From the NCBI GenBank assembly GCA_016699085.1, contig CP064958.1, positions 604,619 through 668,618 of the forward strand: a stretch of DNA of 64,000 bases, written 5' to 3'. Below are positions 1-22,199 of the stretch, one piece after another; the first letter of the stretch is position 1; each line of letters starts with the position of its first letter. Under the pieces are notes generated by a model. That model did no database searches and was not told the origin of the DNA. It was given only the letters and a program-made list of their open reading frames with translations. The stretch is from Candidatus Nomurabacteria bacterium. Its GTDB lineage: Bacteria; Patescibacteriota; Minisyncoccia; Phycocordibacterales; UBA9973. The position numbers and the translations under genes were made by a program.

Positions 1-3000
1 GTGTATACCATGACATTAACAGCACAAACATTAAGTGGCACCAAAACAGTTAGTGATTCATTTGAGACGAAGTCATCTCCTTTGTTTGATGTGGTGCGGA
101 CAGGACCAACAAGAATAAATCCAACCGCAGGGTATCCAGTAACGATTGATATTATTCCTAAAAAAAATTGGGAAGGGGTGATCACTGAAAGAGTGCCTTC
201 TGATTTTACTATTTCACCACCAATAAGAAGTATTTCATACGATACTGTTGAAACTCTAAATAATGAAAAGATACTTACGTGGAATGTATCACTTGTTAAA
301 GGCAAGAAAACAACTATTGGCTATTACTTTGATGCTCCAGACGAAAGTCCGCAATTTTATCTCCTTGGACCACTTACATTTGAGCTTGCTTCAACAGAAG
401 ACACAAAAGCGACAACAGTATTTAAGGAGGCACGACAATGGCAAATTGCAAGTGACGTTGCGACTGTCGTACTTTTAACGACTGGTACGAGCTGGAGTGT
501 GCCTGTAGACTTTGATCCAGCAAATAATACTATTGAAGGCATTGGTGGCGGTGGCGGCGGTGGTGGCGGAACAAATGGGACAGGAGCACAGGGTCGTGGA
601 GGTGGAGGAGCTGGTGGAGGAGGTGAATATAGAAAAATTTCGAATTTCAATCCAGGCGGTGCTGGATCAATATCATATGTAATTGGTCAAGGTGGTAGTT
701 TTGGTGCAGCAAATGCAAGTGGTAGTAGTGGTACTGATACGACATGGAATAGTACATCACTCGTAGCTAAGGCGGGTCTTTTAGGTGCAAATACAGGAGC
801 AGGTACAGGAGGTACTGGGGGCGCAGGGGGCACTGGTGGCACAGGAGCTGCAGGGAATAATGATGGTGGTAAGGGTGGCAAAGGTGGGAATCGAAGTGTT
901 ACATTAGGTGGAGGTGGAGGTGGAGGTGGAGGAGCTGGCGGAACAAGTGCTGTCGGAGCTGGAGGAACAAACGGTACTGCTGGTAGTACTGGGGGCGCAG
1001 GAGGTGCTGGGGGTAATGCTTCTGGTGGAACAGCAGGAACGAGTAATGGAGGAGCTGGAGGAGCTGGTACTGTTTGGACCGATAACTCAGGTGGTGCTAA
1101 TAATGGCGTACAAGGTGGAGCTGGTGGTGGCGGTGGAGGAGGACTTGCCGGTGCTGGTGCCGGTGGCGCATCAGGTACGGCTGGTAATTATGGAGCTGGC
1201 GGTGGCGGTGGAGCCGGTGGAGGTTCAGGTTCTTCAGCTGGAAGTGCTGGTACTACAGGAGCAAACGGTATTATTGCTGTTACCTATACTCCGTTTACTA
1301 TTTCGGGTACTGCAAACGGTAATGATACTGCCACTGTAAGAGTTGCTATTAATGGAACTTTACAAGCTCAAACAGGAACTATTTCTGCTAGTGCCTGGTC
1401 TATTAGTGGAGTTACTTTACCAACGTCTGGAGATATTATTACTGTTTGGGTAGATAACGTAACTGATGCAAATGAATCAACTGCTGTAACCATATGGAGC
1501 TCGGGTAGTGTTTCTAGTATGTTGCTAAACACAAATTTTTTAACAATTGGAAGTAATCAAAATACAAGTTTGACGGTCACTAATCTTGGTCAATATGATT
1601 CTGATAATGACGAAGATATTATGCACACCGCAAATAGTGGCGCTTTCTTAGTGCAAGCAGCTGGCAATACGTATACAGGGGAAACTGTTACAATCGCTTC
1701 AAGTAATACACTAACAGTTAGTACGAGTGAATCACTTACAACAGAAAAAATGATTATAAGTGGGACAGTCACTTCATCTGGTACTGCTACGTATACATTT
1801 ACAGGGACAACAGGGACACTCCTTACTAGAACTGGAACATTCACTCAAAGTAATTCAACGGTTAATATTACATCAGCATCTGGAACACCAACATTGCTGT
1901 CTGCTGCGGTCACGTTTCATATTCTTACTATTAATGCAGCTGCAACAGTCATAAATGCAGGTGCCGTCATAACTATCGAAGACACAAGTGGATCTTTGCT
2001 CTATATCCAAACTGGAGTACTCAATGATGATGGTTTAGGAATATCAACTTCGGCTTCTACCACCAATACATTGCAAATTGATTCTGGAGGTACGCTGTGT
2101 TTAGGTGGATCAAGCTCAAATACATCTGCAACTTGCAACACTGGTACTGTATCAACAACGACAAGGTCTATGCCAGCATTTAGTACGTATACATTAAATG
2201 CTTCTTCGACTGTTATTTATTTATCAGATGCGGACACAACTATTTCATCTACACCAACATATGGTAATTTGAAATTACAGCCAAAATTCGTAACTACTGC
2301 ACGTACATATACCTTAAATGGCGCTATGACCGTTAATGGTAATTTTGATATAAATCCCGAAGAATCGGGTGCGGGCACACCTGCACTTACAGTTAATGCC
2401 GGAGGTACCATTACAGTAGCGACAACAAAAACAATAACTCTAACAAGATCAAATAGTTCAAGTAGTTCTCTTGATCTAAGACCTTCATCAACTGATTACG
2501 ATCTTTCGGCTGGGTTCTTGGTGGTAGCCACTAGTGGTACTCTAGATGCAGGAAGTGCTTCATCTGCTATTACACTTACTGGTACTTCTGGAACGCTATT
2601 TACAAAAGCGGGTACCTTCACGCAAGGTACTTCTGAGGTAATTATAACGAGTGCGTCAGGTACGCCGACCTTGCTCTCGGCTGCAACAACATTCCATAAG
2701 TTGACTATTAATAGTACGGCAACCGTGATCAACGCTGGTGCTGTAATAACACTATCGAGTGCAGATGCTGCTAATAAACTTTATATTCAACAAGGTGTAT
2801 TAAATGATGGAGGTAATCAAATCGTTGGCACAGCAAATGGAACTATGCAAATAGATGCTAGTGCAATGCTTTGCATAAATGGCACTGCTGCAGGAACAAA
2901 TGCAACTTGTAATAGTGGTGCAACTATAGGTGGTGGATCAGGCGGATTCCCAACTAACTATACGAATGGCAATATTACCCTTGCAGTTACGTCTACTGTT

Positions 3001-5301
3001 TCATATTTGGGAAATGGTGGTCTGTCTATTTCATCTACACCGACGTATGGGAATCTTAAATTTAATCCAGTAATGGCTGGATCAAATAAAAGTTATACAT
3101 TTTCTGGCGCAACAACTATAAATGGGGATTTTACGATCCTACCTTCAGGTGCTGCATTAGAATTAAAAGTAAAATTAGGGGGCGATCTGACTGTGGCTGC
3201 AACTAAAACAACGACAATTTCAAATAGCGGGGTTCCAACATCTTTATTGCAGCTACGTCCCGTGAGTACAGATTATAATTTGACCACTGGTTTTTTGAAT
3301 GTCAGTAGTGGTTCCGAACTTGATGCAACTATCAGCTCATCGACTATTACTATTACGGGAACATCAGGTACGCTGTATACCAATGCTGGGACATTTGTTA
3401 ATGGAAGTACAGAAGTAAACTTTTCCGGTAATGGTAGTGCGACGATCAATTCTGGCAGTATTACCTTTAATAATTTTAGAAGTTCTGGTACTGGTACAAA
3501 AAGCCTTGGTGTTTCAGGAATTTCTGTTGCGAATAATATATTTATTACTGCAGGAACCTTTAATCCAAACGGAGTAGCCATATCAGGTTCAGGAATTAGT
3601 AATGTACTAACAGCGACAAATAGTACTCTATTGGTAGATCAAAATACAACGACTGCTTTTTCTGATAATTATTCAAGTATGGAAACAGTAACACTTGGTA
3701 CTGGTTCGACAGTTGACTACACGGGAAGTGGTTCGCAGACGATTAGTAGTTCATTCGGTTATGAAAATATAAAAACCTCAACAGGAGGCACCAAGACTTT
3801 AAATGGCACAACGGTGGCTAATGGATCAATTACCATTACTACATCAACACTTACGACAGCAGGTAATACACTGACCGCTCTGAGCATTTCGGTTGATGGG
3901 ACAAGTACATTTACTGCTAGTTCGACATCTACTGTCACGATTAACGGCACCACCGGACCAGTTTTTACGCTTACCTCGGGGGGTGCATTCAATGCAAATT
4001 CATCATCGTTTATCTTTGACGGCAATGCGAGTATGACGCTTCTTTCTGGTGCATTCACCGGTAGTAATGCATTTAATAATGTCACCTTCTCTCCGACAGT
4101 GTCGATTGGCGGTAATAAAACCTATACTCCAAGCTCTACAGCAGTAGAGATAAATGGTAATTTTATTATTAATCCTTCAGCATTGGCTGTCTCGACAACT
4201 TTGATAGTAAATTTAGCAGCAAATCTTACTGTCGCAACAAATAAAACGGTAACAATCCAAGGAACTGGCACTGGGTTAGGCAGGATTGATATACAATCAT
4301 TTGCTCTGAGTGCAGGTTCGATATCAATTGCATCAACTGGGACTATACTCGGTAATAGTGGGAATATTACCTTAGCTGAAAGCTGGACAAATAATGGAAC
4401 ATTTACTGCTGGAACATCAACAGTAACATTAAATAGTGGGACAACTGCAGTCGTAACCGGAACAACGACATTTTACAATCTCACTATTACCCATACGGCA
4501 GCCAAAGAGGTTGATTTTGCAACATCGGGCACCCCAATTTTTCACGTAACGAATGCATTTGTTGTTACGGGTAGTTCAGGTAATTTAATCAAACTGTACT
4601 CAGACTCTGCTGGTACTCAGTGGGAATTTCATCCTACAGGAACTGCTTCAGTTGATTATGCTGATGTCAAAGACGGCGGGTGTCAGTCGGGCGCTATAAC
4701 TATTTCACCGACAAACTCAACGAATAGTGGCAATAATGATCCTTGTTGGTTTTTTGGTACTGCAATATCATTTGATATTGATACAGCGCTCACCGATAGT
4801 GACTCAAATGCCCCATATAGTGTGGCACTGGGCGCTATTACAACATCTGATACGAGAGTATCAGGAAGTACTGATTCTATAAATTATATTTGGTTTGATG
4901 TATCTAGTTCTGCATCTGGTGGTGTAGTTATAACAGTTGTTAATACAAATGGCTCCAATGGTTTAGTTTCTACTTCAGTACCAGCAGATAACATAAATAG
5001 TGCTGACGGTTCTGTCGCAGATGGTACCGAAAATTACGGATTGTGTATTGTTGCGGTTTCAGCAGTGTCAGGCACACTGGATGATGAAGGAGGGTATGAT
5101 GGAGATACGTGTGCAGGTGACAGCGAAACCAATAATGTGCAACAGTTAACATCCACCGGTGAAATTTTATTTGATACAAATGGAGCCCCTATTACTACAG
5201 GTAGGGCACAAATCTCAGTTAATGCTTCAATAAGTGCCACAACTCCGGCACATGATAATTACACGGATACCTTGACCTTTATTGCAACTGGAACATTTTA
5301 A
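1..5301 (+). CDS. Giant secreted/surface protein, 5'-truncated at window edge. It has a Gly-rich low-complexity segment, three tandem ~270-aa Thr/Ser-rich β-helix-like modules, and a ~170-aa C-terminal domain shared with the downstream 379-aa protein.
   Basis: One continuous 1766-aa ORF from base 1; GGxGG-type low complexity at roughly aa 180-420; three internally repeated modules (...TGTSGTL(F/Y)T.AGTF..S.V.I.SASGTPTLLSAA.TFH.LTIN..ATVINAGAVIT...); C-terminal 170 aa about 55% identical to the C-terminus of ORF 5438..6577. Confidence 0.8.
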   Translation: MYTMTLTAQTLSGTKTVSDSFETKSSPLFDVVRTGPTRINPTAGYPVTIDIIPKKNWEGVITERVPSDFTISPPIRSISYDTVETLNNEKILTWNVSLVKGKKTTIGYYFDAPDESPQFYLLGPLTFELASTEDTKATTVFKEARQWQIASDVATVVLLTTGTSWSVPVDFDPANNTIEGIGGGGGGGGGTNGTGAQGRGGGGAGGGGEYRKISNFNPGGAGSISYVIGQGGSFGAANASGSSGTDTTWNSTSLVAKAGLLGANTGAGTGGTGGAGGTGGTGAAGNNDGGKGGKGGNRSVTLGGGGGGGGGAGGTSAVGAGGTNGTAGSTGGAGGAGGNASGGTAGTSNGGAGGAGTVWTDNSGGANNGVQGGAGGGGGGGLAGAGAGGASGTAGNYGAGGGGGAGGGSGSSAGSAGTTGANGIIAVTYTPFTISGTANGNDTATVRVAINGTLQAQTGTISASAWSISGVTLPTSGDIITVWVDNVTDANESTAVTIWSSGSVSSMLLNTNFLTIGSNQNTSLTVTNLGQYDSDNDEDIMHTANSGAFLVQAAGNTYTGETVTIASSNTLTVSTSESLTTEKMIISGTVTSSGTATYTFTGTTGTLLTRTGTFTQSNSTVNITSASGTPTLLSAAVTFHILTINAAATVINAGAVITIEDTSGSLLYIQTGVLNDDGLGISTSASTTNTLQIDSGGTLCLGGSSSNTSATCNTGTVSTTTRSMPAFSTYTLNASSTVIYLSDADTTISSTPTYGNLKLQPKFVTTARTYTLNGAMTVNGNFDINPEESGAGTPALTVNAGGTITVATTKTITLTRSNSSSSSLDLRPSSTDYDLSAGFLVVATSGTLDAGSASSAITLTGTSGTLFTKAGTFTQGTSEVIITSASGTPTLLSAATTFHKLTINSTATVINAGAVITLSSADAANKLYIQQGVLNDGGNQIVGTANGTMQIDASAMLCINGTAAGTNATCNSGATIGGGSGGFPTNYTNGNITLAVTSTVSYLGNGGLSISSTPTYGNLKFNPVMAGSNKSYTFSGATTINGDFTILPSGAALELKVKLGGDLTVAATKTTTISNSGVPTSLLQLRPVSTDYNLTTGFLNVSSGSELDATISSSTITITGTSGTLYTNAGTFVNGSTEVNFSGNGSATINSGSITFNNFRSSGTGTKSLGVSGISVANNIFITAGTFNPNGVAISGSGISNVLTATNSTLLVDQNTTTAFSDNYSSMETVTLGTGSTVDYTGSGSQTISSSFGYENIKTSTGGTKTLNGTTVANGSITITTSTLTTAGNTLTALSISVDGTSTFTASSTSTVTINGTTGPVFTLTSGGAFNANSSSFIFDGNASMTLLSGAFTGSNAFNNVTFSPTVSIGGNKTYTPSSTAVEINGNFIINPSALAVSTTLIVNLAANLTVATNKTVTIQGTGTGLGRIDIQSFALSAGSISIASTGTILGNSGNITLAESWTNNGTFTAGTSTVTLNSGTTAVVTGTTTFYNLTITHTAAKEVDFATSGTPIFHVTNAFVVTGSSGNLIKLYSDSAGTQWEFHPTGTASVDYADVKDGGCQSGAITISPTNSTNSGNNDPCWFFGTAISFDIDTALTDSDSNAPYSVALGAITTSDTRVSGSTDSINYIWFDVSSSASGGVVITVVNTNGSNGLVSTSVPADNINSADGSVADGTENYGLCIVAVSAVSGTLDDEGGYDGDTCAGDSETNNVQQLTSTGEILFDTNGAPITTGRAQISVNASISATTPAHDNYTDTLTFIATGTF

Positions 5302-5437
5302 AAAAATAATAATTTTTGTTGGCAAATTATGATGGTAGTATGGACTGTGGATAACCCATATTGTGGATTTAGATGTTTTTTTGTGTTAAAATAATAGCAC
5401 CTACGAAAATTTATTAACTATTTCATTTCTCTATATT

Positions 5438-6577
5438 ATGAAAAGTATGCGCAGGTCTTTGGTTTTATTAGTTATACTAGCTGTTATTTTAAGTACGACT
5501 TATTATCCGTATCCTCATCTTGTTGAAGCAGCGTCAATTACTAGTGCAAAAGCAACATTTGGTAGATTAAAAGCAAGTACTGCCAATGAATTTGGTACCA
5601 TCGAATTTGCAACTCCATCAGGTATTCAGACCGGCGGTGCTGATACTATTTCATTTACATTTAGTGCTGATTTTACTCTAGCCGCTGAAGTTGCCAATAA
5701 CTACGATATCGAGCTTGGTGATAGTGCAACTTGTTCGAGTGCTACCTATACAGATGAAGTTGTGGCGCTTTCACCATCTGCGACTGATTGGGGGCTTGAT
5801 ATTACAGGTCAGGTAATCACACTTAGTCCTGAAACGGACCAGGTCCTTACGGCTGGTTTTTGTATGCGACTTGTTTGGGGTACAGCTGCAACAACTGGTG
5901 CGACAGGTTCATCGAGTACGATTACAAACGGTGCAGTGGATGATGATGATACCATTACGATTGGAGGCGTTTTTGGTGATAGTGGAACAATAACTGTGGA
6001 TATTATTGATGATGATCAAGTCAGTGTTACTGCATCAGTTAATCAATCCATTACGTTTGACCTTGATGCAACAGTAGCTGATGGCGAGACAAATACGCCG
6101 TATTCTGTGGCACTTGGAACTATTACAACGACAGACACAAGAGTTTCTGGATCAACGGATACTGTGAACATGATTGTTGCTGAAGCAGACACCAATGCTA
6201 GTGGAGGCTTGGTTGTGACAGTCAGAAATGCTAATGGATCAAATGGTCTAGTTTCAACTTCTGTCCCAGCAGATAATATAAATAGTGCTGACGCTGCAAT
6301 GATTGACGGAACAGAAAATTACGGACTATGTGTTATCACTGCTGGTCTAAGTGGCTTTACAATTGCGACCCCCTATGCGACTAATACCTGTGCTACCAAC
6401 TCAGAAACAAATGACGTTGAAGCTCTAACAACAACAGGTGAGAGTATTCTAAGTACAACTGCCCCAGTAGCAGCGGCCCATGCAGAAATTTCAGTTAATG
6501 CTGCAATATCAGGCACTACAGTTGCTCATTCTGACTATACTGATACCCTTACCTTTATTGCCACGGCCACATTCTAA
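5438..6577 (+). CDS. Secreted protein (379 aa). N-terminal signal peptide; C-terminal ~170-aa domain homologous to the C-terminus of the giant protein, both ending ...YTDTLTFIAT(G/A)TF.
   Basis: ORF with hydrophobic N-terminus MKSMRRSLVLLVILAVIL; C-terminal alignment to ORF 1..5301 read directly from the translations. Confidence 0.75.
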   Translation: MKSMRRSLVLLVILAVILSTTYYPYPHLVEAASITSAKATFGRLKASTANEFGTIEFATPSGIQTGGADTISFTFSADFTLAAEVANNYDIELGDSATCSSATYTDEVVALSPSATDWGLDITGQVITLSPETDQVLTAGFCMRLVWGTAATTGATGSSSTITNGAVDDDDTITIGGVFGDSGTITVDIIDDDQVSVTASVNQSITFDLDATVADGETNTPYSVALGTITTTDTRVSGSTDTVNMIVAEADTNASGGLVVTVRNANGSNGLVSTSVPADNINSADAAMIDGTENYGLCVITAGLSGFTIATPYATNTCATNSETNDVEALTTTGESILSTTAPVAAAHAEISVNAAISGTTVAHSDYTDTLTFIATATF

Positions 6578-6690
6578 TATCTTTTAATTATTTGATGAAT
6601 CACATTAAAAAAAAGAGAGTAATCACATTGCTTGTTGTATTGTTTTTTTCTATTGTAAGTTTTACAACAAAAGCTGAGGCCCTGTCTCTT

Positions 6691-6906
6691 TGAAGGAGGG
6701 TATGATGGAGATACGTGTGCAGGTGACAGCGAAACCAATAATGTGCAACAGTTAACATCCACCGGTGAAATTTTATTTGATACAAATGGAGCCCCTATTA
6801 CTACAGGTAGGGCACAAATCTCAGTTAATGCTTCAATAAGTGCCACAACTCCGGCACATGATAATTACACGGATACCTTGACCTTTATTGCAACTGGAAC
6901 ATTTTA
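6691..6906 (+). pseudogene. Duplicated 3'-terminal fragment (last ~72 codons) of the giant surface-protein gene, with no start codon. It is part of the tandem duplication.
   Basis: Nucleotides 6691..6906 are identical to 5085..5301; no in-frame ATG. Confidence 0.8.
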
Positions 6907-7043
6907 AAAAAATAATAATTTTTGTTGGCAAATTATGATGGTAGTATGGACTGTGGATAACCCATATTGTGGATTTAGATGTTTTTTTGTGTTAAAATAA
7001 TAGCACCTACGAAAATTTATTAACTATTTCATTTCTCTATATT

Positions 7044-8185
7044 ATGAAAAGTATGCGCAGGTCTTTGGTTTTATTAGTTATACTAGCTGTTATTTTAAGT
7101 ACGACTTATTATCCGTATCCTCATCTTGTTGAAGCAGCGTCAATTACTAGTGCAAAAGCAACATTTGGTAGATTAAAAGCAAGTACTGCCAATGAATTTG
7201 GTACCATCGAATTTGCAACTCCATCAGGTATTCAGACCGGCGGTGCTGATACTATTTCATTTACATTTAGTGCTGATTTTACTCTAGCCGCTGAAGTTGC
7301 CAATAACTACGATATCGAGCTTGGTGATAGTGCAACTTGTTCGAGTGCTACCTATACAGATGAAGTTGTGGCGCTTTCACCATCTGCGACTGATTGGGGG
7401 CTTGATATTACAGGTCAGGTAATCACACTTAGTCCTGAAACGGACCAGGTCCTTACGGCTGGTTTTTTGTATGCGACTTGTTTGGGGTACAGCTGCAACA
7501 ACTGGTGCGACAGGTTCATCGAGTACGATTACAAACGGTGCAGTGGATGATGATGATACCATTACGATTGGAGGCGTTTTTGGTGATAGTGGAACAATAA
7601 CTGTGGATATTATTGATGATGATCAAGTCAGTGTTACTGCATCAGTTAATCAATCCATTACGTTTGACCTTGATGCAACAGTAGCTGATGGCGAGACAAA
7701 TACGCCGTATTCTGTGGCACTTGGAACTATTACAACGACAGACACAAGAGTTTCTGGATCAACGGATACTGTGAACATGATTGTTGCTGAAGCAGACACC
7801 AATGCTAGTGGAGGCTTGGTTGTGACAGTCAGAAATGCTAATGGATCAAATGGTCTAGTTTCAACTTCTGTCCCAGCAGATAATATAAATAGTGCTGACG
7901 CTGCAATGATTGACGGAACAGAAAATTACGGACTATGTGTTATCACTGCTGGTCTAAGTGGCTTTACAATTGCGACCCCCCTATGCGACTAATACCTGTG
8001 CTACCAACTCAGAAACAAATGACGTTGAAGCTCTAACAACAACAGGTGAGAGTATTCTAAGTACAACTGCCCCAGTAGCAGCGGCCCATGCAGAAATTTC
8101 AGTTAATGCTGCAATATCAGGCACTACAGTTGCTCATTCTGACTATACTGATACCCTTACCTTTATTGCCACGGCCACATTCTAA
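7044..8185 (+). pseudogene. Frameshifted duplicate of the 379-aa secreted-protein gene (copy of 5438..6577). Two single-base homopolymer insertions split it into three ORFs.
   Basis: Identical to 5438..6577 except T6 becomes T7 near 7467 and C5 becomes C6 near 7977; the ORF track shows three overlapping fragments 7044..7550, 7471..7992, 7958..8185. Confidence 0.8.
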
Positions 8186-8199
8186 TATCTTTTAATTAT

Positions 8200-9261
8200 T
8201 TGATGAATCACATTAAAAAAAAGAGAGTAATCACATTGCTTGTTGTATTGTTTTTTTCTATTGTAAGTTTTACAACAAAAGCTGAGGCCCTGTCTCTTTC
8301 TCCTGTGCGATTTGAGCTTTCTGCTGACCCTGGAACCGTGATAAAAGATGAAATGGTATTACTCAATGAGACTGATACCACTGAAACATTTTATGCATCA
8401 TTCTCAAATTTCGAGGCACAAGGCGAGAGTGGAAGTCCTAGCTTTTTGGAGCCAACAGAAGGTCTCGGTACTTGGATTACTACGCAAGATAGTATTACGA
8501 TCCAAGGTGGTCAATCACAGATAGTTCCTTTTGAGATTACTGTGCCAAGCAATGCTCCTGCTGGGGGTAATTTTGCAGCAATTTTTTGGTCAACTAGTCC
8601 TCCAGTTGATGGTAGTGACTCTGTTATTATTGGTGCAAAAACAGGTATATTAGTCCTACTATCAGTCAATGGAGACGTAAAAGTTGCGGGTGGTATTAAT
8701 GACTTTGATACTCTAGGGGGTCAACATTACTTTGAATCATTGCCTATTGATTTTATATATCATTTTCACAATGAAGGTGGCGATAGAATAAAGCCAGACG
8801 GAAATATTATTATTAAGAATATGCTTGGTTTGACCACTCTTATTCCTGCCAATAAGGTTGAGGGGAATGTGCTTCCAAATCAAACTAGAAAATTTGAAGT
8901 ATTGTGGCAAGGTAAAGGTAGTCATTCAGTTAGTGAAGCCCAAGCAATCAGTGGATTTTTTAATAAAGCAAGATACGAATGGCAAAATTTTGCTATTGGC
9001 CGATATAAAGCTACATTATCGCTCATCTATGGCACCGTAACCGAGCCAGTAACCAAGTCAACTGTCCTTTGGGTTTTTCCATGGCACTTCCTGCTTATTT
9101 TTACCATAGTACTTCTCTTGGTATTGTTTATACTAAGAAAACTAATACGCACCTACAATCATTGGATTATTAAGCAAGTTGAAAAGCGGATGGAAGCTCA
9201 AGCCGCAAAGGACGCTACAATTTCTCAAAAAACACCTAATGATATGGGCCCGCGGATATAA
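8200..9261 (+). CDS. Cell-surface protein with N-terminal signal peptide, ~300-aa extracellular domain and a C-terminal TM anchor followed by a basic tail. The architecture is reminiscent of DUF916-type anchor proteins that accompany surface-protein clusters (inference).
   Basis: MMNHIKKKRVITLLVVLFFSIVSF...KAEA signal; C-terminal hydrophobic helix VFPWHFLLIFTIVLLLVLFIL followed by RKLIRTY. Confidence 0.7.
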   Translation: MMNHIKKKRVITLLVVLFFSIVSFTTKAEALSLSPVRFELSADPGTVIKDEMVLLNETDTTETFYASFSNFEAQGESGSPSFLEPTEGLGTWITTQDSITIQGGQSQIVPFEITVPSNAPAGGNFAAIFWSTSPPVDGSDSVIIGAKTGILVLLSVNGDVKVAGGINDFDTLGGQHYFESLPIDFIYHFHNEGGDRIKPDGNIIIKNMLGLTTLIPANKVEGNVLPNQTRKFEVLWQGKGSHSVSEAQAISGFFNKARYEWQNFAIGRYKATLSLIYGTVTEPVTKSTVLWVFPWHFLLIFTIVLLLVLFILRKLIRTYNHWIIKQVEKRMEAQAAKDATISQKTPNDMGPRI

Positions 9262-10975
9262 GAGTTTTGCATTAATGCTTATAGCACTCACCTTTGGGTG
9301 CTTTTGGCTTTTTCAGTCCGCAGACTTATTGCCAATTACAGTCTTTGCTGATGAAATCATAGTAGAGGAAGATCCGGTAAGTGTTAATGCAGTCGTTGGG
9401 TCAGGTGATGGTGGGGAAGATACAGGCGGTGGTGGAGGTTCAGTTTCGTACTGCCAAGACGCAGCTGCAACAAATTTTGGAGATGTGCTGCCTTGTCAAT
9501 ACTCTCCATTGCCGACGACGTGCGTAAATCCACTTGCAACAAACTATGGAGGTGATTTGCCATGTGTTTTTGCAGTAGAGAATTTATGTCAAGATCCTGA
9601 TGCAGTAAATTATCAAGGTGTATTGCCGTGCTTCTATGCTCCACCACCACCGAGATGCCAAGACGCAGCCGCGACAAATTTTGGAGAATTTTTACCATGT
9701 ACATATCCTGAATCTCTCTTGTGTCAGGATTTATTTGCAGAAAATTATGGTAATCCACTGCCTTGTAGTTATCAAGAAGACTGTACGGGGCCTGATTGTG
9801 ATGTTCCGTCGCCGTGTGTTGGCACAGGCTGCACGAATGATGAGAGTACTACTCCAGGAGGTGGAGGGACTGGAAATACAAATCCAACAGGACCGAGCGA
9901 TTTTGCGACGGCTATTACCAACGTGGGCATAATTACTGATCAGGTTACTGAGAGCCTTTCAAATGCGCTTACTATTATCGGCAATACGATCCAGAATGTG
10001 ACACCAGTTCTGGTGATGCCTGCAGGTAGTGTAGAAACAAAAATAATTACAACAGGAGGTTTGGTTGGGGCGGGCGTGTTCTCGCTTGCTTCATTGCTGT
10101 TTATAAATCCACTGTCATTTTCAGAAATTATATTCTTGCCGCTTCGTCTATGGTCGTTACTTCTCGCTGCACTAGGATTGTGGAAGCGCCGTCCGCCGTG
10201 GGGAACTGTGTATGATTCAATAACCAAGCAACCGCTTGATCCTGCTTATGTTGTTCTTTACGATAAGGATGGCAAGGAAGCTGCAACATCGATTACAGAT
10301 CTGGATGGGCGATACGGCTTTTTGCCCCACGTTGGCACCTATACGATTACAGTTCAAAAAACCAATTATGAATTTCCGTCTAAAAAATTACAAGGACTTA
10401 CTCATGATGAAATCTATCAAGATTTGTATTTTGGTAGCAGTCTAATAATCAAAGAAGAAGGGGAAGTTATTACTAAAAACATCCCTATGGATCCGCTTAA
10501 TTTTGACTGGAACGAATTTGCTAAGCGCCAAAACAAACTCATGAAATTTTATTCAAAGCGCTATGTTATTTGGAAGCAAATAAGTGACACTCTTTTTGTT
10601 ATCGGTCTTGTGCTGGCATTGATTGCATTCCTTGTTGCTCCAAAACCATACAATACGATCATACTACTGTGTTACTTGGTCTTTCTGTTCCTTCGACAAA
10701 CTAATCTATTTCGTCATCCACTCGGTAGTGTGGTTGAAAAGAGTACAAATGAGCCACTGGCATTTGCTGTCGTACATATATTCCATGCCGGGTCTACCAG
10801 TGAGATTATGCGCAAAGTTGCAGATAAAAGTGGGCGTTTCTACTCATTGGTTCCTAACGGTAAATATTATGTAAAAATAGAGAAAAAGAATGCAGATATG
10901 AGTTATAGTCTCGTTCACACTTCCATGCCGTTTATTGTTCGTAAAGGTCATATCGATACAACGTTTAAAATATAG
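9239..10975 (+). CDS. Membrane/surface protein. It has a signal peptide, six ~20-aa Cys-containing repeats (C-x-D-x-x-A-x-N-Y/F-G-x-x-L-P-C-x-Y), a Gly/Thr linker, TM segments, and two C-terminal carboxypeptidase-regulatory-like (CarboxypepD_reg-type) β-sandwich domains.
   Basis: Repeats read in the translation (CQDAAATNFGDVLPCQY, CVNPLATNYGGDLPCVF, CQDPDAVNYQGVLPCFY, CQDAAATNFGEFLPCTY, CQDLFAENYGNPLPCSY); motifs DLDGRYGF...GTYTITV and DKSGRFYS...GKYYVKI. Start chosen at the internal ATG 9239 with a signal-peptide-like N-terminus; the ORF is open from 9179. Confidence 0.65.
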   Translation: MIWARGYKSFALMLIALTFGCFWLFQSADLLPITVFADEIIVEEDPVSVNAVVGSGDGGEDTGGGGGSVSYCQDAAATNFGDVLPCQYSPLPTTCVNPLATNYGGDLPCVFAVENLCQDPDAVNYQGVLPCFYAPPPPRCQDAAATNFGEFLPCTYPESLLCQDLFAENYGNPLPCSYQEDCTGPDCDVPSPCVGTGCTNDESTTPGGGGTGNTNPTGPSDFATAITNVGIITDQVTESLSNALTIIGNTIQNVTPVLVMPAGSVETKIITTGGLVGAGVFSLASLLFINPLSFSEIIFLPLRLWSLLLAALGLWKRRPPWGTVYDSITKQPLDPAYVVLYDKDGKEAATSITDLDGRYGFLPHVGTYTITVQKTNYEFPSKKLQGLTHDEIYQDLYFGSSLIIKEEGEVITKNIPMDPLNFDWNEFAKRQNKLMKFYSKRYVIWKQISDTLFVIGLVLALIAFLVAPKPYNTIILLCYLVFLFLRQTNLFRHPLGSVVEKSTNEPLAFAVVHIFHAGSTSEIMRKVADKSGRFYSLVPNGKYYVKIEKKNADMSYSLVHTSMPFIVRKGHIDTTFKI

Positions 10976-11000
10976 AAAGAAAATTGCTATACTTACTACT

Positions 11001-11531
11001 ATGCAAAGTAACTATCAAATAAAATTTAAGACGTACGTTGCGCGGGTAGTACTTGCCTCGCTCCTAATTATTATTGGTCTAGTTCCGGTTCTGGTACGCG
11101 CAGCTGCTACTCCGTTACCGCCGACTGCTGTAGGAATATTTAATAATATAGACTCTGTACAAACAAAAGTTGAAAATGCAATTCCGCCAAGTGTCTTAGT
11201 AAACCTGCAGAAAATTTTTACCACCATTGATGCATACCGAGTAACCATAGCAAATGTGATAGTTAGTAAACGCACCTCGCTCGAAAAGAAATTACAAGAT
11301 GTCCTCATACAAAAGTTAGAGAAATCAGATACACTTTTTAATTTTGAAACTAATACGAATGATGAAACCTCTGAGTATAATCCACTCGAAATGGGCATTA
11401 TTCAGTTTGAAGTATTCTTGTTGACGTTTATTTCCTATATATTTACGAGTGTAGTTATTTTCTACATTTGCTTGGCACTTTTGTTGTACTGGCTTATGAG
11501 GGCTTTTTATAGGCTTATTCGAGGCCGGTAA
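11001..11531 (+). CDS. Small secreted/membrane protein (signal peptide, C-terminal TM helix).
   Basis: MQSNYQIKFKTYVARVVLASLLIIIGLVPVLVRAAA signal-like N-terminus; C-terminal hydrophobic helix. The ORF is open from 10935 (TTG). Confidence 0.5.
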   Translation: MQSNYQIKFKTYVARVVLASLLIIIGLVPVLVRAAATPLPPTAVGIFNNIDSVQTKVENAIPPSVLVNLQKIFTTIDAYRVTIANVIVSKRTSLEKKLQDVLIQKLEKSDTLFNFETNTNDETSEYNPLEMGIIQFEVFLLTFISYIFTSVVIFYICLALLLYWLMRAFYRLIRGR

Positions 11532-11574
11532 ATAGGTATAGGCAAGCGTGGTGGGGGTGTGATATACTTTTGCC

Positions 11575-11862
11575 ATGGGAAATATTCTCCACAAGGCTCT
11601 GTATACTGTTATTCTGCTTGGTTCATTTGTCTATTTGCCATTTTGGATAAGCATTTGTATCGGTATTTTAGGTATCTTCTTGTTTAGTTTTGAAATTATC
11701 ACAGTCATTATTTTTTTTGTTGCAGACATGGTGTACGCGGATCATTTTCTGTTACATATGTTTGTCGGCAAAATTGCTCTGACATTATTAGCACTTTTTT
11801 TAGTTGGTATTTCACTTTACATCAAGCCAAAAATTCGCAGTTTACAATACAATGAGAATTAA
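11575..11862 (+). CDS. Small integral membrane protein (2-3 TM helices), function unknown.
   Basis: 95-aa ORF, strongly hydrophobic; overlaps the start of the downstream PBP gene by 11 nt. Confidence 0.4.
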   Translation: MGNILHKALYTVILLGSFVYLPFWISICIGILGIFLFSFEIITVIIFFVADMVYADHFLLHMFVGKIALTLLALFLVGISLYIKPKIRSLQYNEN

Positions 11863-13537
11863 ATTTTATAAAAAGAAAGTGCAACTTTACGAAATCGCAC
11901 CTGATGAGATTTTTCTTGACGCGCAAAATATACCTGAATTCGATACACAGCAGTTTGAAGGCAGACTAGAAAAATCAATCAACAAGAAGACTATCTTTGC
12001 GCTTGGTTTTTTTTCATTGCTATTTGGGATCTTATTTGCTGGAAGAATTGGTATTTTAGAAATTAAAAAAGGTCAAGCATATCTTGATCGAAGTGAATAC
12101 AACAGTCTAGCGACAACTCCACTGTTTGCTGATCGTGGCATTGTTCTTGACCGCAACAATAAAGAATTGATTGCAAATGTTTTAACCACTAGCGAAGATA
12201 CGTTCCCGCACCGTACGTACATCGATTTGCCTGGCTTTGGACATTTATTAGGCTACGTAAGCTACCCCGCTAAAGATAGTAATGGTATTTACTGGCAAGA
12301 AAAGATAATTGGCAAGGATGGTGTCGAAAAGCAATTCAATCAAGAACTTGCTGGAACTAATGGTCTTAAAATTCTTGAAACCGATGCGTTTGGTAATGCA
12401 CAGTCAGAAAATATACTTGATAAGCCAAAAAATGGCGATAATCTTGTCCTTGCCGTTGATGCTGATATTCAAAGTGTTTTATATAATGCAATCAAAGATT
12501 TCACTGCTCAAACAAAATTTGAAGGCGGCGCAGGTGTCATTATGAATGTAGAAACTGGAGAAATTATAGCTATGACTAGTTTCCCTGAATATGATTCGAA
12601 TATATTATCTGAAGGTGCTGATAGGGAGATGATCAATTCATATATTCATGATCCAAGAAAAGTCTTTTTAAATAAAGTCGTTTCTGGACTTTATACACCA
12701 GGGTCCATTGTTAAGCCATTTGTTGCTATTGGGGCATTGTCTGAAGGTATTATTTCACCAGAAAAGCAGATACTAAGTACTGGCTCTATTGCAATCCCTA
12801 ACCCGTATGATCCAGATTTAAAAACTGTGTTTAATGACTGGGAAGCTCATGGTTGGGTCGATCTTCGCCACGCATTAGCAGTATCATCAAATGTGTATTT
12901 TTATGAAATTGGGGGTGGATTTCAAGAGCAAGTAGGTCTTGGTATTGATAACTTACATAAATACGAATCTATGTTTGGTATGGGCAAAAAAACAAATATA
13001 AATATGCCAGGTGAAACGGCTGGCAATATTCCTAATCCAGTATGGAAAGAGAAAAATTTTCCTGGTGATCCTTGGCGAATTGGTGATACATACAATACAG
13101 CAATCGGACAATATGGCGTGCAAGTTACGCCGTTACAGATGGTGCGAGGTATCGCAGCAATAGCCAATTACGGTCGCATGATTACTCCCACTGTACTTAA
13201 AACTGATGATGTGCAAAAAGGTAGCCCAATAGATATTGCTAAAGAAAATTTTACGATTATCCACGAAGCAATGCGGCTCACGGTAACTGAAGGCACTGGT
13301 ACAGTTTTAAATACGCCGGCAGTTATGGTTGCAGCAAAAACAGGTACAGCTCAGGTTGGTATTGCAAAACAGTTTATGAACTCGTGGTCAGTTGGTTTTT
13401 TCCCGTATGAACATCCCAAATATGCGTTTGTTGTACTCGTTGAACGTGGCCCAAAATCAAATACAATCGGGGCTTCGCATGTCATGCGAACCGTGCTTGA
13501 TTATATAAGTGCAAATAAGCCATCTATGCTCGAGTAA
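11852..13537 (+). CDS. mrdA: Penicillin-binding protein 2-type D,D-transpeptidase.
   Basis: SxxK (SIVKP), SxN (SSN) and KTG(T) (KTGTAQ) motifs in order; N-terminal TM anchor; a second PBP (ftsI) lies in the dcw cluster, so this one is assigned to the PBP2 role by context. Confidence 0.8.
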   Translation: MRIKFYKKKVQLYEIAPDEIFLDAQNIPEFDTQQFEGRLEKSINKKTIFALGFFSLLFGILFAGRIGILEIKKGQAYLDRSEYNSLATTPLFADRGIVLDRNNKELIANVLTTSEDTFPHRTYIDLPGFGHLLGYVSYPAKDSNGIYWQEKIIGKDGVEKQFNQELAGTNGLKILETDAFGNAQSENILDKPKNGDNLVLAVDADIQSVLYNAIKDFTAQTKFEGGAGVIMNVETGEIIAMTSFPEYDSNILSEGADREMINSYIHDPRKVFLNKVVSGLYTPGSIVKPFVAIGALSEGIISPEKQILSTGSIAIPNPYDPDLKTVFNDWEAHGWVDLRHALAVSSNVYFYEIGGGFQEQVGLGIDNLHKYESMFGMGKKTNINMPGETAGNIPNPVWKEKNFPGDPWRIGDTYNTAIGQYGVQVTPLQMVRGIAAIANYGRMITPTVLKTDDVQKGSPIDIAKENFTIIHEAMRLTVTEGTGTVLNTPAVMVAAKTGTAQVGIAKQFMNSWSVGFFPYEHPKYAFVVLVERGPKSNTIGASHVMRTVLDYISANKPSMLE

Positions 13538-13542
13538 TAAGA

Positions 13543-13570
13543 TTGACTTTAGCCTATAAATGATTACAAT
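13543..13570 (+). promoter_or_regulatory. Candidate promoter for greA: -35 TTGACT (13543-48), 16-nt spacer, -10 TACAAT (13565-70).
   Basis: Hexamers read directly; the ATG of greA is 7 nt after the -10, implying a short or absent leader. Confidence 0.35.
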
Positions 13571-13576
13571 AATCCA

Positions 13577-14044
13577 ATGAATCAAGACACAGAATACCTA
13601 ACGAAGGATAGAAAAAAGGAGCTTGAAGTCGAATTGCTGAATTTGCAAACGAACAGGCGCAAGGAGATATTAGAAAATTTGGAGTATGCCAAATCTCTTG
13701 GTGATTTGTCTGAGAATGCTGAATATCACCAAGCACGCGAAGAACAAACAAAACTTGAGGAACGAATTTCAAAAATCGAACATGTGCTCAAAGAGTCAAA
13801 AGTCATTGAGCAGCATCACAGTACAACAGTTGAAATCGGCTCAACAGTCCAAATACAAAAGAAAGGCGTCAAGGATGTGCAGACAATGCATGTCGTTGGA
13901 AGTGAAGAGGCTGATATGGCGCAGGGTAAAATATCTCACCGATCACCGCTTGGCAATGCACTCTTAGGCAAGAAAAAGAATGATAGTGTTTCAGTTAAAA
14001 GTCCCAACGGTACAGCAACTTATACCATAATTGCCATTGAATAA
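13577..14044 (+). CDS. greA: Transcription elongation factor GreA.
   Basis: 155 aa; N-terminal coiled-coil ...LGDLSENAEYHQAREEQ... and C-terminal FKBP-like domain typical of GreA. Confidence 0.9.
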   Translation: MNQDTEYLTKDRKKELEVELLNLQTNRRKEILENLEYAKSLGDLSENAEYHQAREEQTKLEERISKIEHVLKESKVIEQHHSTTVEIGSTVQIQKKGVKDVQTMHVVGSEEADMAQGKISHRSPLGNALLGKKKNDSVSVKSPNGTATYTIIAIE

Positions 14045-19942: not shown

Positions 19943-20058
19943 TTACAAATTTCAAAAAAAATGTTATAGTGTTTTCGCAATTTGGCCCTATCGCCCCCGC
20001 CTGCCCTCATGAGTACACGAGGGAGCGGGCAGGTAACGGCTAACGCATTAAAATCGTT

Positions 20059-20295
20059 ATGTACTTTGTCTATGTACTTAAAAGCAAAAAGGATGAGAAA
20101 CTTTATTATGGGTTTACAGAAAATATAGAAAAAAGGTTACATCAACACAATAATGGTGAAGTTCGATCTACGAAATATAGAATTCCACTTCAGTTGCTTT
20201 ATTATGAGAAAGTGGATAATCTTACAGAAGCACGAAAACGCGAAAAGTATTTTAAATCTGGATTTGGTCGAAAATATATAAAAAGTAAACTTTAG
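20059..20295 (+). CDS. GIY-YIG nuclease family protein (UPF0213/YhbQ-like small GIY-YIG).
   Basis: MYFVYVLKSKKDEKLYYGFTENIEKRLHQHNNG...; GIY-YIG motif spacing and conserved R and E positions. Confidence 0.85.
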   Translation: MYFVYVLKSKKDEKLYYGFTENIEKRLHQHNNGEVRSTKYRIPLQLLYYEKVDNLTEARKREKYFKSGFGRKYIKSKL

Positions 20296-20300
20296 CATTT

Positions 20301-20375
20301 GGCCCTATCGTCTAACGGCTAGGACAGATCCTTCTCAAGGATTAAATCAGAGTTCGATTCTCTGTAGGGTCACCA
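20301..20375 (+). tRNA. tRNA-Glu (anticodon CUC), CCA encoded.
   Basis: Hand-folded cloverleaf: acceptor GGCCCUA/UAGGGUC, D arm GUCU-AACGGCUA-GGAC, anticodon arm GAUCC-UUCUCAA-GGAUU (U33, anticodon CUC, A37), 4-nt variable loop, T arm CAGAG-UUCGAUU-CUCUG, discriminator A, CCA. Confidence 0.8.
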
Positions 20376-20428
20376 GTTGCCAGATCTAGCAATTTTTCCC
20401 CCTTGATTAATATTTAAATTGAACTTTA

Positions 20429-21541: not shown

Positions 21542-21774
21542 TTTTTGTATCTGTTTCTTTTTCTCATTTCTCTTAACGCCTCCCCATACAACTGATGTGG
21601 ATACACCCCATAGAGCACACAGAGCCTAAACAAGTACTCTGTTCCTGGATAGTAATGTCCTTGCTCCCATTTAGAAACTTGGCCTTCATCTGTAAATCCT
21701 AGGTACGTTGCCACGTCTTTCTGTGTAAGGCCATTGAGCTTCCTAGCTTCTCGTAGTTTGTTTGGTATAGGCAT
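21538..21774 (-). CDS. XRE-family helix-turn-helix transcriptional regulator (78 aa).
   Basis: LREARKLNGLTQKDVATYLGFTDEGQVSKWEQG is a typical Cro/C1-type HTH. Confidence 0.8.
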   Translation of the reverse strand: MPIPNKLREARKLNGLTQKDVATYLGFTDEGQVSKWEQGHYYPGTEYLFRLCVLYGVYPHQLYGEALREMRKRNRYKN

Positions 21775-21777
21775 AGG

Positions 21778-22110
21778 TTATAGCGAAGGGAACCTACCTA
21801 AGAATGGTAAGTCATTATCAAGGTTCTCCAGCTTCTCCTTGGTCTCTTTTTCCTTCTGCTCCCGCTCCCAAGCATCTACTTTCTCCTGAGCCTTCTCAGC
21901 AACACCAGGGAGTGACAAAGCTTTTAAATCCGCTATACTGCTTTGTACTGGTCTCTTATTTTCTAGCAATTCGGAAATCCAGACATTTGGATCACAAACG
22001 GCGCAAAGCCAAATAAACTGCTTTATTTGCGAGCCGTTCGTGAAGCCGCAGTCATGTCGCTTTGCGACAGACGAGGCGGGGTCGCAAGTACTTACGTAGA
22101 ATTTGAGCAT
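21778..22110 (-). CDS. Hypothetical protein (110 aa), co-oriented with and immediately upstream of the XRE gene (3-nt gap).
   Basis: ORF only; acidic/Lys-rich C-terminus; no recognisable motif. Confidence 0.4.
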   Translation of the reverse strand: MLKFYVSTCDPASSVAKRHDCGFTNGSQIKQFIWLCAVCDPNVWISELLENKRPVQSSIADLKALSLPGVAEKAQEKVDAWEREQKEKETKEKLENLDNDLPFLGRFPSL

Positions 22111-22199
22111 AGCGAAAAATTATACTTAGTAACTTGTGACCACATAAACAAAGTACGCGCAGCGTACAAAATAATGGCACCTAAACCCATAATCAAAAC

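What the first reader, a model, noticed from the sequence alone, without database searches (positions are those of the whole stretch)
5085..8298. Exact 1.6-kb tandem duplication: second copy differs only by two homopolymer insertions that frameshift the duplicated gene
Segment 5085-6690 (3' end of the giant surface-protein gene, the intergenic region, the complete 379-aa gene and the first 32 codons of the next gene) is repeated head-to-tail as 6691-8298. The copies are identical except for one extra T near 7467 (T6 to T7) and one extra C near 7977 (C5 to C6). The first-copy junction also truncates the start of the downstream gene into a 32-codon stub, while the intact gene follows the second copy. 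Identity this perfect apart from homopolymer-length errors suggests either an assembly artefact (a mis-joined or repeat-resolved read with homopolymer sequencing errors) or a very recent real duplication that is being pseudogenised. Either way the annotation of three fragment ORFs at 7044-8185 is misleading.
Basis: seen in the sequence. Interest (0 to 1): 0.55.

Follow-up and report, generated by a model that had tools for sequence, protein, structure and literature searches.

The report
Tandem gene duplication with unpolished Nanopore errors
A 1.6-kb stretch carrying one surface-protein gene really is written twice in a row in this Nanopore-assembled wastewater bacterial genome, but the two "frameshifts" in the second copy are most likely leftover sequencing errors, so this is a data-quality matter and not new biology.

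Summary
Window 5085-6690 (1606 nt) recurs head-to-tail as 6691-8298 (1608 nt) with no substitutions. The only differences are two single-base insertions, T5->T6 at 7463-7468 and C5->C6 at 7976-7981.

The window comes from GenBank CP064958, an 808,221-bp circular Patescibacteria MAG from Aalborg West activated sludge. It was assembled with CANU from Nanopore R9 reads at about 43x, then polished with Racon, medaka and finally Illumina reads.

About 34 kb of unique window sequence, compared with a 99.8-99.9 % identical strain, shows no gene-breaking homopolymer indel. I conclude that the two indels are most likely Nanopore consensus errors that short-read polishing cannot reach inside a repeat, and not pseudogenisation.

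The duplication itself may well be real in at least some of the sampled DNA. The 3.2 kb fits inside single reads of at least 4 kb (mean about 8.5 kb). However, it is absent from all 16 other assemblies of this locus, including a PacBio assembly of the near-identical strain, and its junction has only 1 nt of microhomology. Only mapping the reads can settle it.

The duplicated gene encodes an uncharacterised secreted protein with an adhesin- or pilin-like fold. Interest is low.

The parts
1..5301 (+). 3' part (1766 codons) of a giant surface-protein gene, 2492 aa in related contigs. Its C-terminal ~180 aa are paralogous to the C-terminal domain of the 379-aa protein (59 % aa identity).
5085..6690 (+). 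Copy 1 of the tandem repeat unit (1606 nt). It is identical to the independent short-read contig L003 over 5179-6690.
6691..8298 (+). Copy 2 of the tandem repeat unit (1608 nt). It equals copy 1 plus two single-base homopolymer insertions.
6682..6699 (.). Novel junction ...CTGTCTCTT|TGAAGGAGG... between 6690 and 6691. Microhomology is 1 nt and no filler bases are present. The junction 41-mer is absent from the genome and metagenome collections.
5438..6577 (+). Intact 379-aa gene (GenBank QQR50086.1, IPF86_03335). The product has a signal peptide and two beta-sandwich domains with an adhesin- or pilin-like fold. It belongs to a family of more than 400 'hypothetical' Patescibacteria proteins.
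6595..6693 (+). 32-codon stub holding only the signal peptide of the downstream 352-aa gene. It is closed by a TGA created at the junction.
6691..6907 (+). Orphan duplicate of the last 72 codons of the giant gene, with no start of its own.
7044..8185 (+). Second copy of the 379-aa gene, split into three ORFs: 7044-7550 (QQR50087.1, 168 aa), 7471-7992 and 7958-8185. Removing one T and one C restores the identical 379-aa product.
7463..7468 (+). T6 run. It is T5 at 5857-5861 in copy 1 and in all related contigs aligned at the DNA level (L001-L003).
7976..7981 (+). C6 run. It is C5 at 6369-6373 in copy 1 and in all related contigs aligned at the DNA level (L001-L004).
8203..9261 (+). Intact downstream 352-aa gene with a signal peptide and a C-terminal transmembrane segment. 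It has a sub-threshold hit to the WxL-interacting-protein domain.

Best explanation
The window is part of GenBank CP064958, MAG AalW_18-Q3-R10-53_BAT3C.395. This is an 808-kb circular Patescibacteria/Paceibacteria genome built with CANU from Nanopore R9 reads.

A 1606-nt segment carrying one complete adhesin-like gene stands in direct tandem. It was probably present in at least part of the sampled population, as an ordinary illegitimate-recombination duplication.

The two 'frameshifts' in the second copy are not mutations. They are residual Nanopore homopolymer-length errors. In the last polishing step, Illumina reads mapped one place each with minimap2 and fed to Racon, reads from a duplicated stretch go to the copy that matches them better, which is the error-free copy 1. 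Copy 2 therefore stays at Nanopore-plus-medaka quality. If so, the real genome has either two intact copies of the gene or one.

Shown here: the repeat, the nature of the differences, the provenance and pipeline, and the absence of the duplication elsewhere.

Inferred: the polishing blind spot as the cause of the indels, and the reality of the duplication in the reads.
For: Provenance:
- The copy-1 product and the 168-aa fragment are exactly QQR50086.1 and QQR50087.1 (IPF86_03335 and IPF86_03340) on an 808,221-bp contig.
- Supplementary Data 3 of PMC8012365 lists that size as CP064958, one circular contig, with Illumina coverage 22.4x and Nanopore coverage 42.7x.
- The MAG name carries none of the 'fly', 'uni' or 'cln' suffixes. 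It therefore came from the automated pipeline: CANU, then Racon on Nanopore reads, then medaka twice, then Racon on Illumina reads.

Nature of the differences:
- Both are +1 changes in homopolymers, with no substitutions in 1606 nt.
- This is 2 errors in 1608 nt, about 0.12 %. From my own knowledge, that is the usual range for an R9.4.1 medaka consensus.
- Removing the two bases restores the identical protein.

Confinement to the repeat:
- About 12.5 kb plus 21.4 kb of window sequence is 99.8-99.9 % identical to the JGI strain. Within these near-identical stretches there is no gene-breaking indel in the window.
- The only homopolymer difference is A8 versus A9 at 26617, and there the window has the intact ORF.
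- Copy 1 is 100 % identical to the independent contig L003.

Published basis: PMC8812927 states that residual long-read errors are mostly homopolymer-length errors and often remain in repeats after short-read polishing.

For the duplication being in the reads:
- Reads were filtered to at least 4 kb and average about 8.5 kb. The 3.2-kb structure therefore lies inside single reads, with about 25 spanning reads expected.
- Locus tag 03335 is roughly the 667th feature, which places it in the interior of the record. It is not an untrimmed circular overlap.
- Both copies share the window-specific alleles at 5696 and 6388. Copy 2 is therefore not any of the other strains assembled so far, L001, L002 or L004.
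- The family has expanded by tandem duplication in other Patescibacteria: L017 and L018 carry two adjacent paralogues 55 % identical.
Against: - No other assembly has the duplication. This covers 8 assemblies of the same or a nearly identical species: L001/L005, L002-L004 and L019-L022. It also covers 8 more distant relatives, L007-L014.
- L001 is a PacBio 6-10 kb metaFlye assembly of a strain 99.8 % identical here. Collapse of the repeat by short reads cannot explain its single copy.
- The Logan short-read contig L003 is 100 % identical to the window strain. It runs straight through the native 6690->8299 boundary without a break. A fixed duplication should break a de Bruijn-graph contig there. 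This is inference, and coverage in that sample is unknown.
- The junction 41-mer is absent from both public collections.
- The junction has only 1 nt of microhomology.
- The four longest runs in the unit (A8, T7, T7, A7) are unchanged and two 5-mers are hit. This is mildly unexpected for any slippage or error model.
- I could not look at reads.
Confidence: 0.5

Rival explanations
1. False duplication. The real genome has one copy. CANU's layout or consensus wrote the segment twice, for example by following one aberrant read or by mis-joining reads. The second, unsupported copy kept Nanopore errors because no short reads were assigned to it.
For: - The locus is single copy in all 16 other assemblies, including a PacBio long-read assembly of a 99.8-99.9 % identical strain.
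- L003, which is identical to the window strain, crosses the native boundary unbroken.
- The junction has 1 nt of microhomology and falls at arbitrary positions inside two genes.
- The junction sequence occurs nowhere else in public data.
- All errors sit in one copy.
Against: - No step of the documented pipeline is known to me to create a clean 1.6-kb internal tandem copy.
- The structure is shorter than every read used, at least 4 kb at about 43x. No repeat resolution was needed, and a single chimeric read should have been out-voted or trimmed.
- A ligation chimera of two fragments from the same 3 kb of an organism at 0.29 % abundance is very improbable.
- The duplication is not at the record ends, judging by the locus-tag index. 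An untrimmed circular overlap is therefore unlikely.
- There is no change of strain similarity at the junction.
Confidence: 0.3
2. Real duplication and real frameshifts. This would be a very recent tandem duplication whose redundant second copy has already been inactivated by two slippage insertions.
For: - The sequence as deposited shows exactly this.
- Both indels lie inside the coding region of the duplicated gene, while the longer runs outside it are untouched.
- The Logan contig L004, from another sample, starts exactly at the first C of the C5 run. A C5/C6 polymorphism would produce that in a de Bruijn graph, but the hint is weak.
Against: - Two independent indels with no substitution in 1.6 kb is unlikely for real divergence. 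Between this strain and its closest relative, substitutions outnumber homopolymer indels by at least 20:1 in the near-identical stretches.
- The differences are exactly the dominant error class of the sequencing platform used, in exactly the kind of region where polishing fails.
- T5 and C5 are short tracts with low slippage rates.
- No T6 product is on record from any other dataset. In the 90 % protein cluster the only 168-aa member is this record's own QQR50087.1.
Confidence: 0.12
3. Two co-existing haplotypes written in tandem. A second allele of the locus from a co-occurring strain was placed next to the first one instead of being collapsed.
For: - Activated-sludge populations contain several strains of this species. 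L001, L002 and L004 differ by SNPs.
- False duplications from haplotypes are well known in eukaryote assemblies (titles).
Against: - Copy 2 carries no SNP relative to copy 1. It shares the window-specific alleles at 5696 and 6388 that distinguish it from all other known strains.
- The MAG's polymorphic rate is very low, 0.00098.
Confidence: 0.05
4. Programmed or phase-variable switching of the second copy through the T and C tracts.
For: The gene encodes a surface protein, and the differences lie in homopolymers inside the coding region.
Against: - Tracts of 5-6 nt are shorter than typical contingency-locus repeats (own knowledge).
- Two separate shifts are present and together they do not restore the frame.
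- The tracts are invariant, T5 and C5, in all related contigs aligned at the DNA level.
Confidence: 0.02

Closest known systems
Residual homopolymer-length errors in repeats of long-read assemblies after short-read polishing (described for bacterial genomes in the Polypolish paper, PMC8812927)
   Same: The assembly is Nanopore-first and was polished last with short reads aligned to one place each. The differences are homopolymer length only. They are confined to repeated sequence, while the unique sequence around it is clean.
   Different: Here the repeat is a two-copy tandem duplication whose own reality is unverified, not an rRNA operon or an IS element. I could not inspect the alignments.
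Spontaneous tandem segmental duplication in bacteria by illegitimate (RecA-independent) recombination
   Same: The copies are direct and head-to-tail, with a single novel junction and no filler bases. Both boundary genes keep one intact copy, and the gene in the middle is doubled together with its upstream region.
   Different: There is only 1 nt of microhomology, whereas short direct repeats are common at such junctions (own knowledge). The duplication has been seen in a single assembly only, and its population frequency is unknown.
False duplications in genome assemblies (heterotype or homotype duplications discussed for vertebrate assemblies, e.g. PMC9516821)
   Same: The copies are near-identical and adjacent, differ only by error-type changes, and inflate the gene count with fragment ORFs.
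   Different: No gap or contig boundary is visible, and the haploid population has low polymorphism. The duplicated span is shorter than the reads used.
MSCRAMM-type adhesins and chaperone-usher or Gram-positive pilins (for the duplicated gene's product only)
   Same: The AlphaFold model (pLDDT 89) has two beta-sandwich domains behind a signal peptide. Best Foldseek PDB matches are FnBPA, SdrE and SdrG N2-N3, plus the CfaB and Csu pilins.
   Different: Whole-protein TM-scores are low, 0.2-0.25, reaching about 0.5 only against single-domain pilins. There is no sequence-family hit in Pfam, NCBIfam or PDB. No LPXTG motif or sortase context was examined.

Membership tests
Unpolished long-read homopolymer errors in a repeat | The assembly was built from error-prone long reads and polished with short reads mapped to a single location each | tested here: met
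   The source was identified as CP064958. Methods were CANU v1.8, Racon, medaka twice, then minimap2 plus Racon with Illumina reads.
Unpolished long-read homopolymer errors in a repeat | The differences are homopolymer-length changes only | tested here: met
   T5->T6 and C5->C6, with 0 substitutions in 1606 nt.
Unpolished long-read homopolymer errors in a repeat | The errors are confined to repeated sequence and the unique sequence of the same contig is clean | tested here: met
   No gene-breaking indel in about 34 kb of unique window sequence compared with a 99.8-99.9 % identical strain. Copy 1 is 100 % identical to L003.
Unpolished long-read homopolymer errors in a repeat | Short reads from the sample support only the uninterrupted alleles (T5, C5) | not testable with these tools
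   The raw reads of PRJNA629478 are not available here.
Real tandem duplication | Head-to-tail identical copies with one novel junction | tested here: met
Real tandem duplication | The junction and doubled depth are supported by reads or by an independent assembly | tested here: not met
   Independent assemblies: 0 of 16 have it. The junction 41-mer is absent from the genome and metagenome collections. Read support itself could not be tested.
Untrimmed overlap of a circular long-read contig | The repeat sits at the two ends of the record, or at a rotation point | tested here: not met
   Locus tags IPF86_03335 and IPF86_03340 are roughly the 667th feature of an 808-kb record. The pipeline trimmed overlaps and reports no rotation. 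This is an inference from tag numbering, and record coordinates were not seen.
Pseudogenisation of a redundant paralogue | Disabling mutations accompanied by other signs of relaxed constraint, or seen in independent data | tested here: not met
   The two frameshifts exist in the record, but there are no substitutions. No other dataset carries the T6 fragment.
Phase-variable contingency locus | A long, length-polymorphic simple-sequence tract in the coding region or promoter | tested here: not met
   The tracts are 5-6 nt and invariant in related contigs.
WxL / WxL-interacting-protein cell-surface cluster of Gram-positive bacteria (context of the duplicated gene) | WxL domain (PF13731) in the secreted proteins and WxLIP domains (PF06030) in the neighbouring gene above the Pfam thresholds | tested here: not met
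   The 379-aa protein and the giant C-terminus have no Pfam hit even at E<=10. The 352-aa protein hits PF06030 at 16.9 bits against a cut-off of 27.3.

The most novel reading that the evidence does not exclude
The duplication and both frameshifts are real. Under this reading, a CPR bacterium very recently doubled an adhesin-like surface gene by illegitimate recombination, and the extra copy was then silenced twice by slippage in short homopolymers. That would be a snapshot of birth and immediate death of a gene copy, or of a crude on/off reserve copy of a surface protein.
Probability: 0.1. Interest if true: 0.3.

Novelty: already known. Interest (0 to 1): 0.1.

Why it matters
This matters mainly as quality control. 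GenBank CP064958 carries an intact gene (QQR50086.1) followed by at least one deposited protein fragment (QQR50087.1). The three ORFs of the broken copy and the 32-codon stub are most likely products of unpolished Nanopore errors, possibly sitting on a mis-assembled copy.

Such records inflate protein databases and paralogue counts, and they can be misread as pseudogenisation in the reduced genomes of Patescibacteria.

If the duplication is real, it is an ordinary and probably transient tandem duplication of a surface-protein gene.

The gene family deserves more attention than the duplication. It has more than 400 unannotated Patescibacteria members, a predicted adhesin- or pilin-like fold, and a conserved position next to a giant surface protein that shares its C-terminal domain.

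Tried and rejected
1. Adapter-driven artefact. The last 9 nt of the repeat unit, CTGTCTCTT, equal the start of the Tn5/Nextera mosaic end. I noticed this because the only metagenome hit to the unit's last 21 nt was an adapter-contaminated contig. I rejected it for two reasons. The 9-mer is native, being present in L001-L004. The source libraries were Nanopore ligation and PCR-free NEBNext, not Nextera.

2. Strain switch at the junction, as a sign of a chimeric join. Divergence from the JGI strain starts about 1.2 kb beyond the repeat, near window 9500, and not at 6690 or 8298.

3. Untrimmed circular overlap. The locus-tag index places the repeat in the interior of the record.

4. Second-strain haplotype. 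The two copies share the window-specific SNP alleles.

5. Paralogy-driven mis-alignment. The left boundary, 5085 in the giant gene, aligns within about 5 columns of the C-run site in the 379-aa gene. However, the paralogous DNA is only about 75 % identical, and the junction partner at 6690 lies in a different gene. I treated this as coincidence.

6. Protein search with the 168-aa frameshift fragment. It returned only two distant hits and missed the known 99 % homologues, so it says nothing about T6 alleles.

7. Exact-product look-ups of the fragment, the stub and the strain-specific 578-aa protein. Nothing was on record in that index. The cluster look-up did find the record.

8. Pfam, NCBIfam and PDB sequence searches for the 379-aa protein. 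No family was found.

9. Using contig start and end positions of Logan contigs (L003 at 5179, L004 at 6369) as evidence for graph branches. They do not fit known SNP positions cleanly, so I used them only as a weak hint.

Full report
**1. Observation**

A repeat search finds one long direct repeat in the whole 64-kb window. A global alignment shows copy 1 at 5085-6690 (1606 nt) and copy 2 at 6691-8298 (1608 nt), lying head-to-tail. They align in three perfectly identical blocks of 772, 512 and 322 nt, separated by two single-base insertions in copy 2. There are no substitutions.

The insertions lengthen a T run and a C run. The T run is 5857-5861 (T5) in copy 1 and 7463-7468 (T6) in copy 2. 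The C run is 6369-6373 (C5) in copy 1 and 7976-7981 (C6) in copy 2. Everything else in the description is right.

The repeat unit holds four elements:
- the last 72 codons of a giant gene;
- a 136-nt intergenic region;
- a complete 379-aa gene (5438-6577);
- the first 32 codons of the next gene.

That 32-codon stub ends at a TGA which the junction itself creates. Copy 2 of the 379-aa gene is broken into ORFs 7044-7550, 7471-7992 and 7958-8185. Removing one T and one C restores a product identical to copy 1. The junction ...CTGTCTCTT|TGAAGGAGG... shares only 1 nt between the flanks and has no filler bases.

**2. What the other assemblies show**

Exact-product look-ups for the downstream 352-aa protein and for a close homologue of the 379-aa protein returned contigs from eight other samples. 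These are L001/L005/L015 (JGI 3300056831), L002-L004 and L019-L022. Eight more distant Patescibacteria loci came from species-representative genomes, L007-L014.

In every one the order is giant gene, one homologue of the 379-aa gene, then the homologue of the 352-aa gene. L013 has an extra partial paralogue. L017 and L018 have two diverged tandem paralogues, 55 % identical. So the family does duplicate in tandem over evolutionary time.

The junction 41-mer is absent from both the genome and the metagenome collections.

The JGI contig is 99.8 % identical to the window over 1-6690 and 99.9 % identical over 26281-47725. It comes from a PacBio 6-10 kb library assembled with metaFlye (PMC10949500 and its Table S1). 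Short-read collapse therefore cannot explain its single copy.

L003, a Logan short-read contig, is 100 % identical to the window across 5179-6690 and then 8299-9436. That span includes strain-specific positions, and L003 carries T5 and C5.

**3. Provenance**

A cluster look-up identified the copy-1 product as QQR50086.1 (IPF86_03335). The 168-aa first fragment of copy 2 is QQR50087.1 (IPF86_03340). Both lie on an 808,221-bp contig labelled Candidatus Nomurabacteria.

Supplementary Data 3 of Singleton et al. 2021 (PMC8012365) lists exactly this size for MAG AalW_18-Q3-R10-53_BAT3C.395, which is CP064958. The entry records:
- one circular contig;
- GTDB classification Patescibacteria; Paceibacteria; UBA9983_A; UBA9973;
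- Illumina coverage 22.4x and Nanopore coverage 42.7x;
- polymorphic rate 0.00098.

The methods are documented:
- Nanopore ligation libraries were run on PromethION R9, and reads under 4 kb were discarded.
- Assembly used CANU v1.8, and circular overlaps were trimmed.
- Polishing used Racon with Nanopore reads, then medaka twice, then Racon with Illumina reads mapped by minimap2.
- The Illumina libraries were PCR-free NEBNext.

Mean Nanopore read length after QC for this sample is about 8.5 kb.

**4. The two indels**

They belong to the dominant residual error class of Nanopore consensus. They also lie in the one place where short-read polishing is expected to fail.

The Polypolish paper states that residual long-read errors are mostly homopolymer-length errors and often remain in repeats, because short-read alignment is unreliable there (PMC8812927).

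The rest of the window is clean. About 34 kb of it is 99.8-99.9 % identical to the JGI strain. Within those near-identical stretches there is no gene-breaking indel in the window. The single homopolymer difference is A8 against A9 at 26617, and there the window carries the intact ORF.

Copy 1 is error-free when judged against L003. Copy 2 has 2 errors in 1608 nt, about 0.12 %. From my own knowledge this is typical of an R9.4.1 medaka consensus.

The inferred mechanism is as follows. Each Illumina read is assigned to the copy that fits it better. Reads covering the T or C run therefore go to copy 1, and copy 2 is left unpolished.

Real pseudogenisation fits less well. It would need two independent indels with no substitution. 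Between this strain and its nearest relative, substitutions outnumber homopolymer indels by at least 20:1 in the near-identical stretches. No other dataset carries the T6 fragment. I put the probability that the indels are errors at about 0.8.

**5. The duplication itself**

Arguments for it being real in the sampled DNA:
- The full 3.2-kb structure is shorter than every read used. At about 43x, roughly 25 reads should contain it together with both flanks. CANU therefore did not have to resolve a repeat.
- No documented step of the pipeline creates clean internal tandem copies.
- The repeat is interior to the record, at roughly the 667th feature. It is not an untrimmed circular overlap.
- Similarity to other strains does not change at the junction.
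- Both copies carry the window-specific alleles.

Arguments against:
- It is absent from all other assemblies, including the long-read one.
- L003 passes unbroken through the native boundary.
- The junction has essentially no microhomology.
- A consensus built on a template read can preserve a minority or aberrant structural variant.

My estimates are about 0.6-0.65 that the duplication exists in at least part of the population and about 0.3-0.35 that it is a mis-layout (including the two-haplotype variant). Only read mapping can settle this.

**6. What is duplicated**

The 379-aa protein has no Pfam, NCBIfam or PDB sequence match. It does belong to a family of more than 400 Patescibacteria proteins, all annotated as "hypothetical".

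An AlphaFold model built from 59 family members has a mean pLDDT of 89. It shows a signal peptide followed by two beta-sandwich domains. The best Foldseek matches in the PDB are staphylococcal MSCRAMM adhesins (FnBPA, SdrE, SdrG) and the pilins CfaB and Csu. TM-scores are modest.

The C-terminal domain of the protein is 59 % identical to the C-terminus of the neighbouring giant protein. The downstream gene has a sub-threshold hit to the WxL-interacting-protein domain. The product is best described as an adhesin- or pilin-like surface protein. This rests on structural resemblance only.

**7. Verdict**

The feature is real in the record and ordinary in kind. It is a two-copy tandem duplication of uncertain reality, whose apparent pseudogenisation is most probably a polishing blind spot. 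It is useful as an annotation and QC flag for CP064958. It is not a biological discovery.

Noticed in passing
window 6682-6690 and 8290-8298 (also 38680): The 9 nt immediately left of the duplication junction, CTGTCTCTT, equal the first 9 nt of the Tn5/Nextera mosaic-end adapter. The 9-mer is native to the genome. The source study used no Nextera libraries, so I treat this as coincidence.
   Followed up: yes
L006 (OJCR01010588.1) 1-40, minus strand: This public metagenome contig ends in Nextera read-through adapter sequence (CTGTCTCTTATACACATCTGACGCT). It matched my 21-nt probe only for that reason, so it is adapter contamination in a deposited contig.
   Followed up: partly
window ~9500-13600: A segment holding the 578-aa Cys-repeat/CarboxypepD_reg protein, a 198-aa ORF and the start of a PBP gene is only about 90 % identical to the JGI and Logan strains. 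Its flanks are 99.8-99.9 % identical. It looks like a recombined or hypervariable surface-protein block.
   Followed up: partly
window 9452-9771: Five copies of a Cys-containing repeat with a period of about 66-69 nt (consensus roughly CQD..A.NFG..LPC) lie inside the 578-aa gene.
   Followed up: no
window 26617 (ORF 25547-26797) versus L015 ~337: The window has A8 and an intact 416-aa ORF. The PacBio/metaFlye JGI contig has A9, and its gene is split into 364 + 65 aa. This is a probable homopolymer error or a real frameshift in the other assembly.
   Followed up: partly
window ~20000-23650 versus L005 15935-19903: The window has a low-GC (31 %) block of ORFs without Pfam hits. At the same place the JGI strain carries a serine recombinase, HTH, NUDIX and glyoxalase island. 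This is a strain-specific insertion site just after the second PBP gene.
   Followed up: partly
window 4765-5301 and 6041-6577: The C-terminal ~180 aa of the giant 2492-aa protein and of the 379-aa protein are paralogous (59 % aa identity). Both end in ...YTDTLTFIATxTF. From memory this resembles the C-terminal motif of Gram-positive WxL domains, but Pfam gives no hit.
   Followed up: partly
L017 4831-7131 and L018 1428-3728: Another Patescibacteria genome (GCA_020049755.1) has two diverged tandem paralogues of the 379-aa gene, 55 % identical. They lie next to proteins with cohesin and dockerin domains.
   Followed up: partly
L004 position 1 = window 6369: The Logan contig from SRR26425197 begins exactly at the first C of the C5 run that is C6 in copy 2. 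A polymorphism at or just before this run would give this start in a de Bruijn graph, but a coverage drop would too.
   Followed up: partly
window 5085 versus 6365-6373: In the paralogue alignment, the left boundary of the duplication in the giant gene falls within about 5 columns of the C-run indel site in the 379-aa gene. No mechanism was found, and it is probably coincidence.
   Followed up: partly
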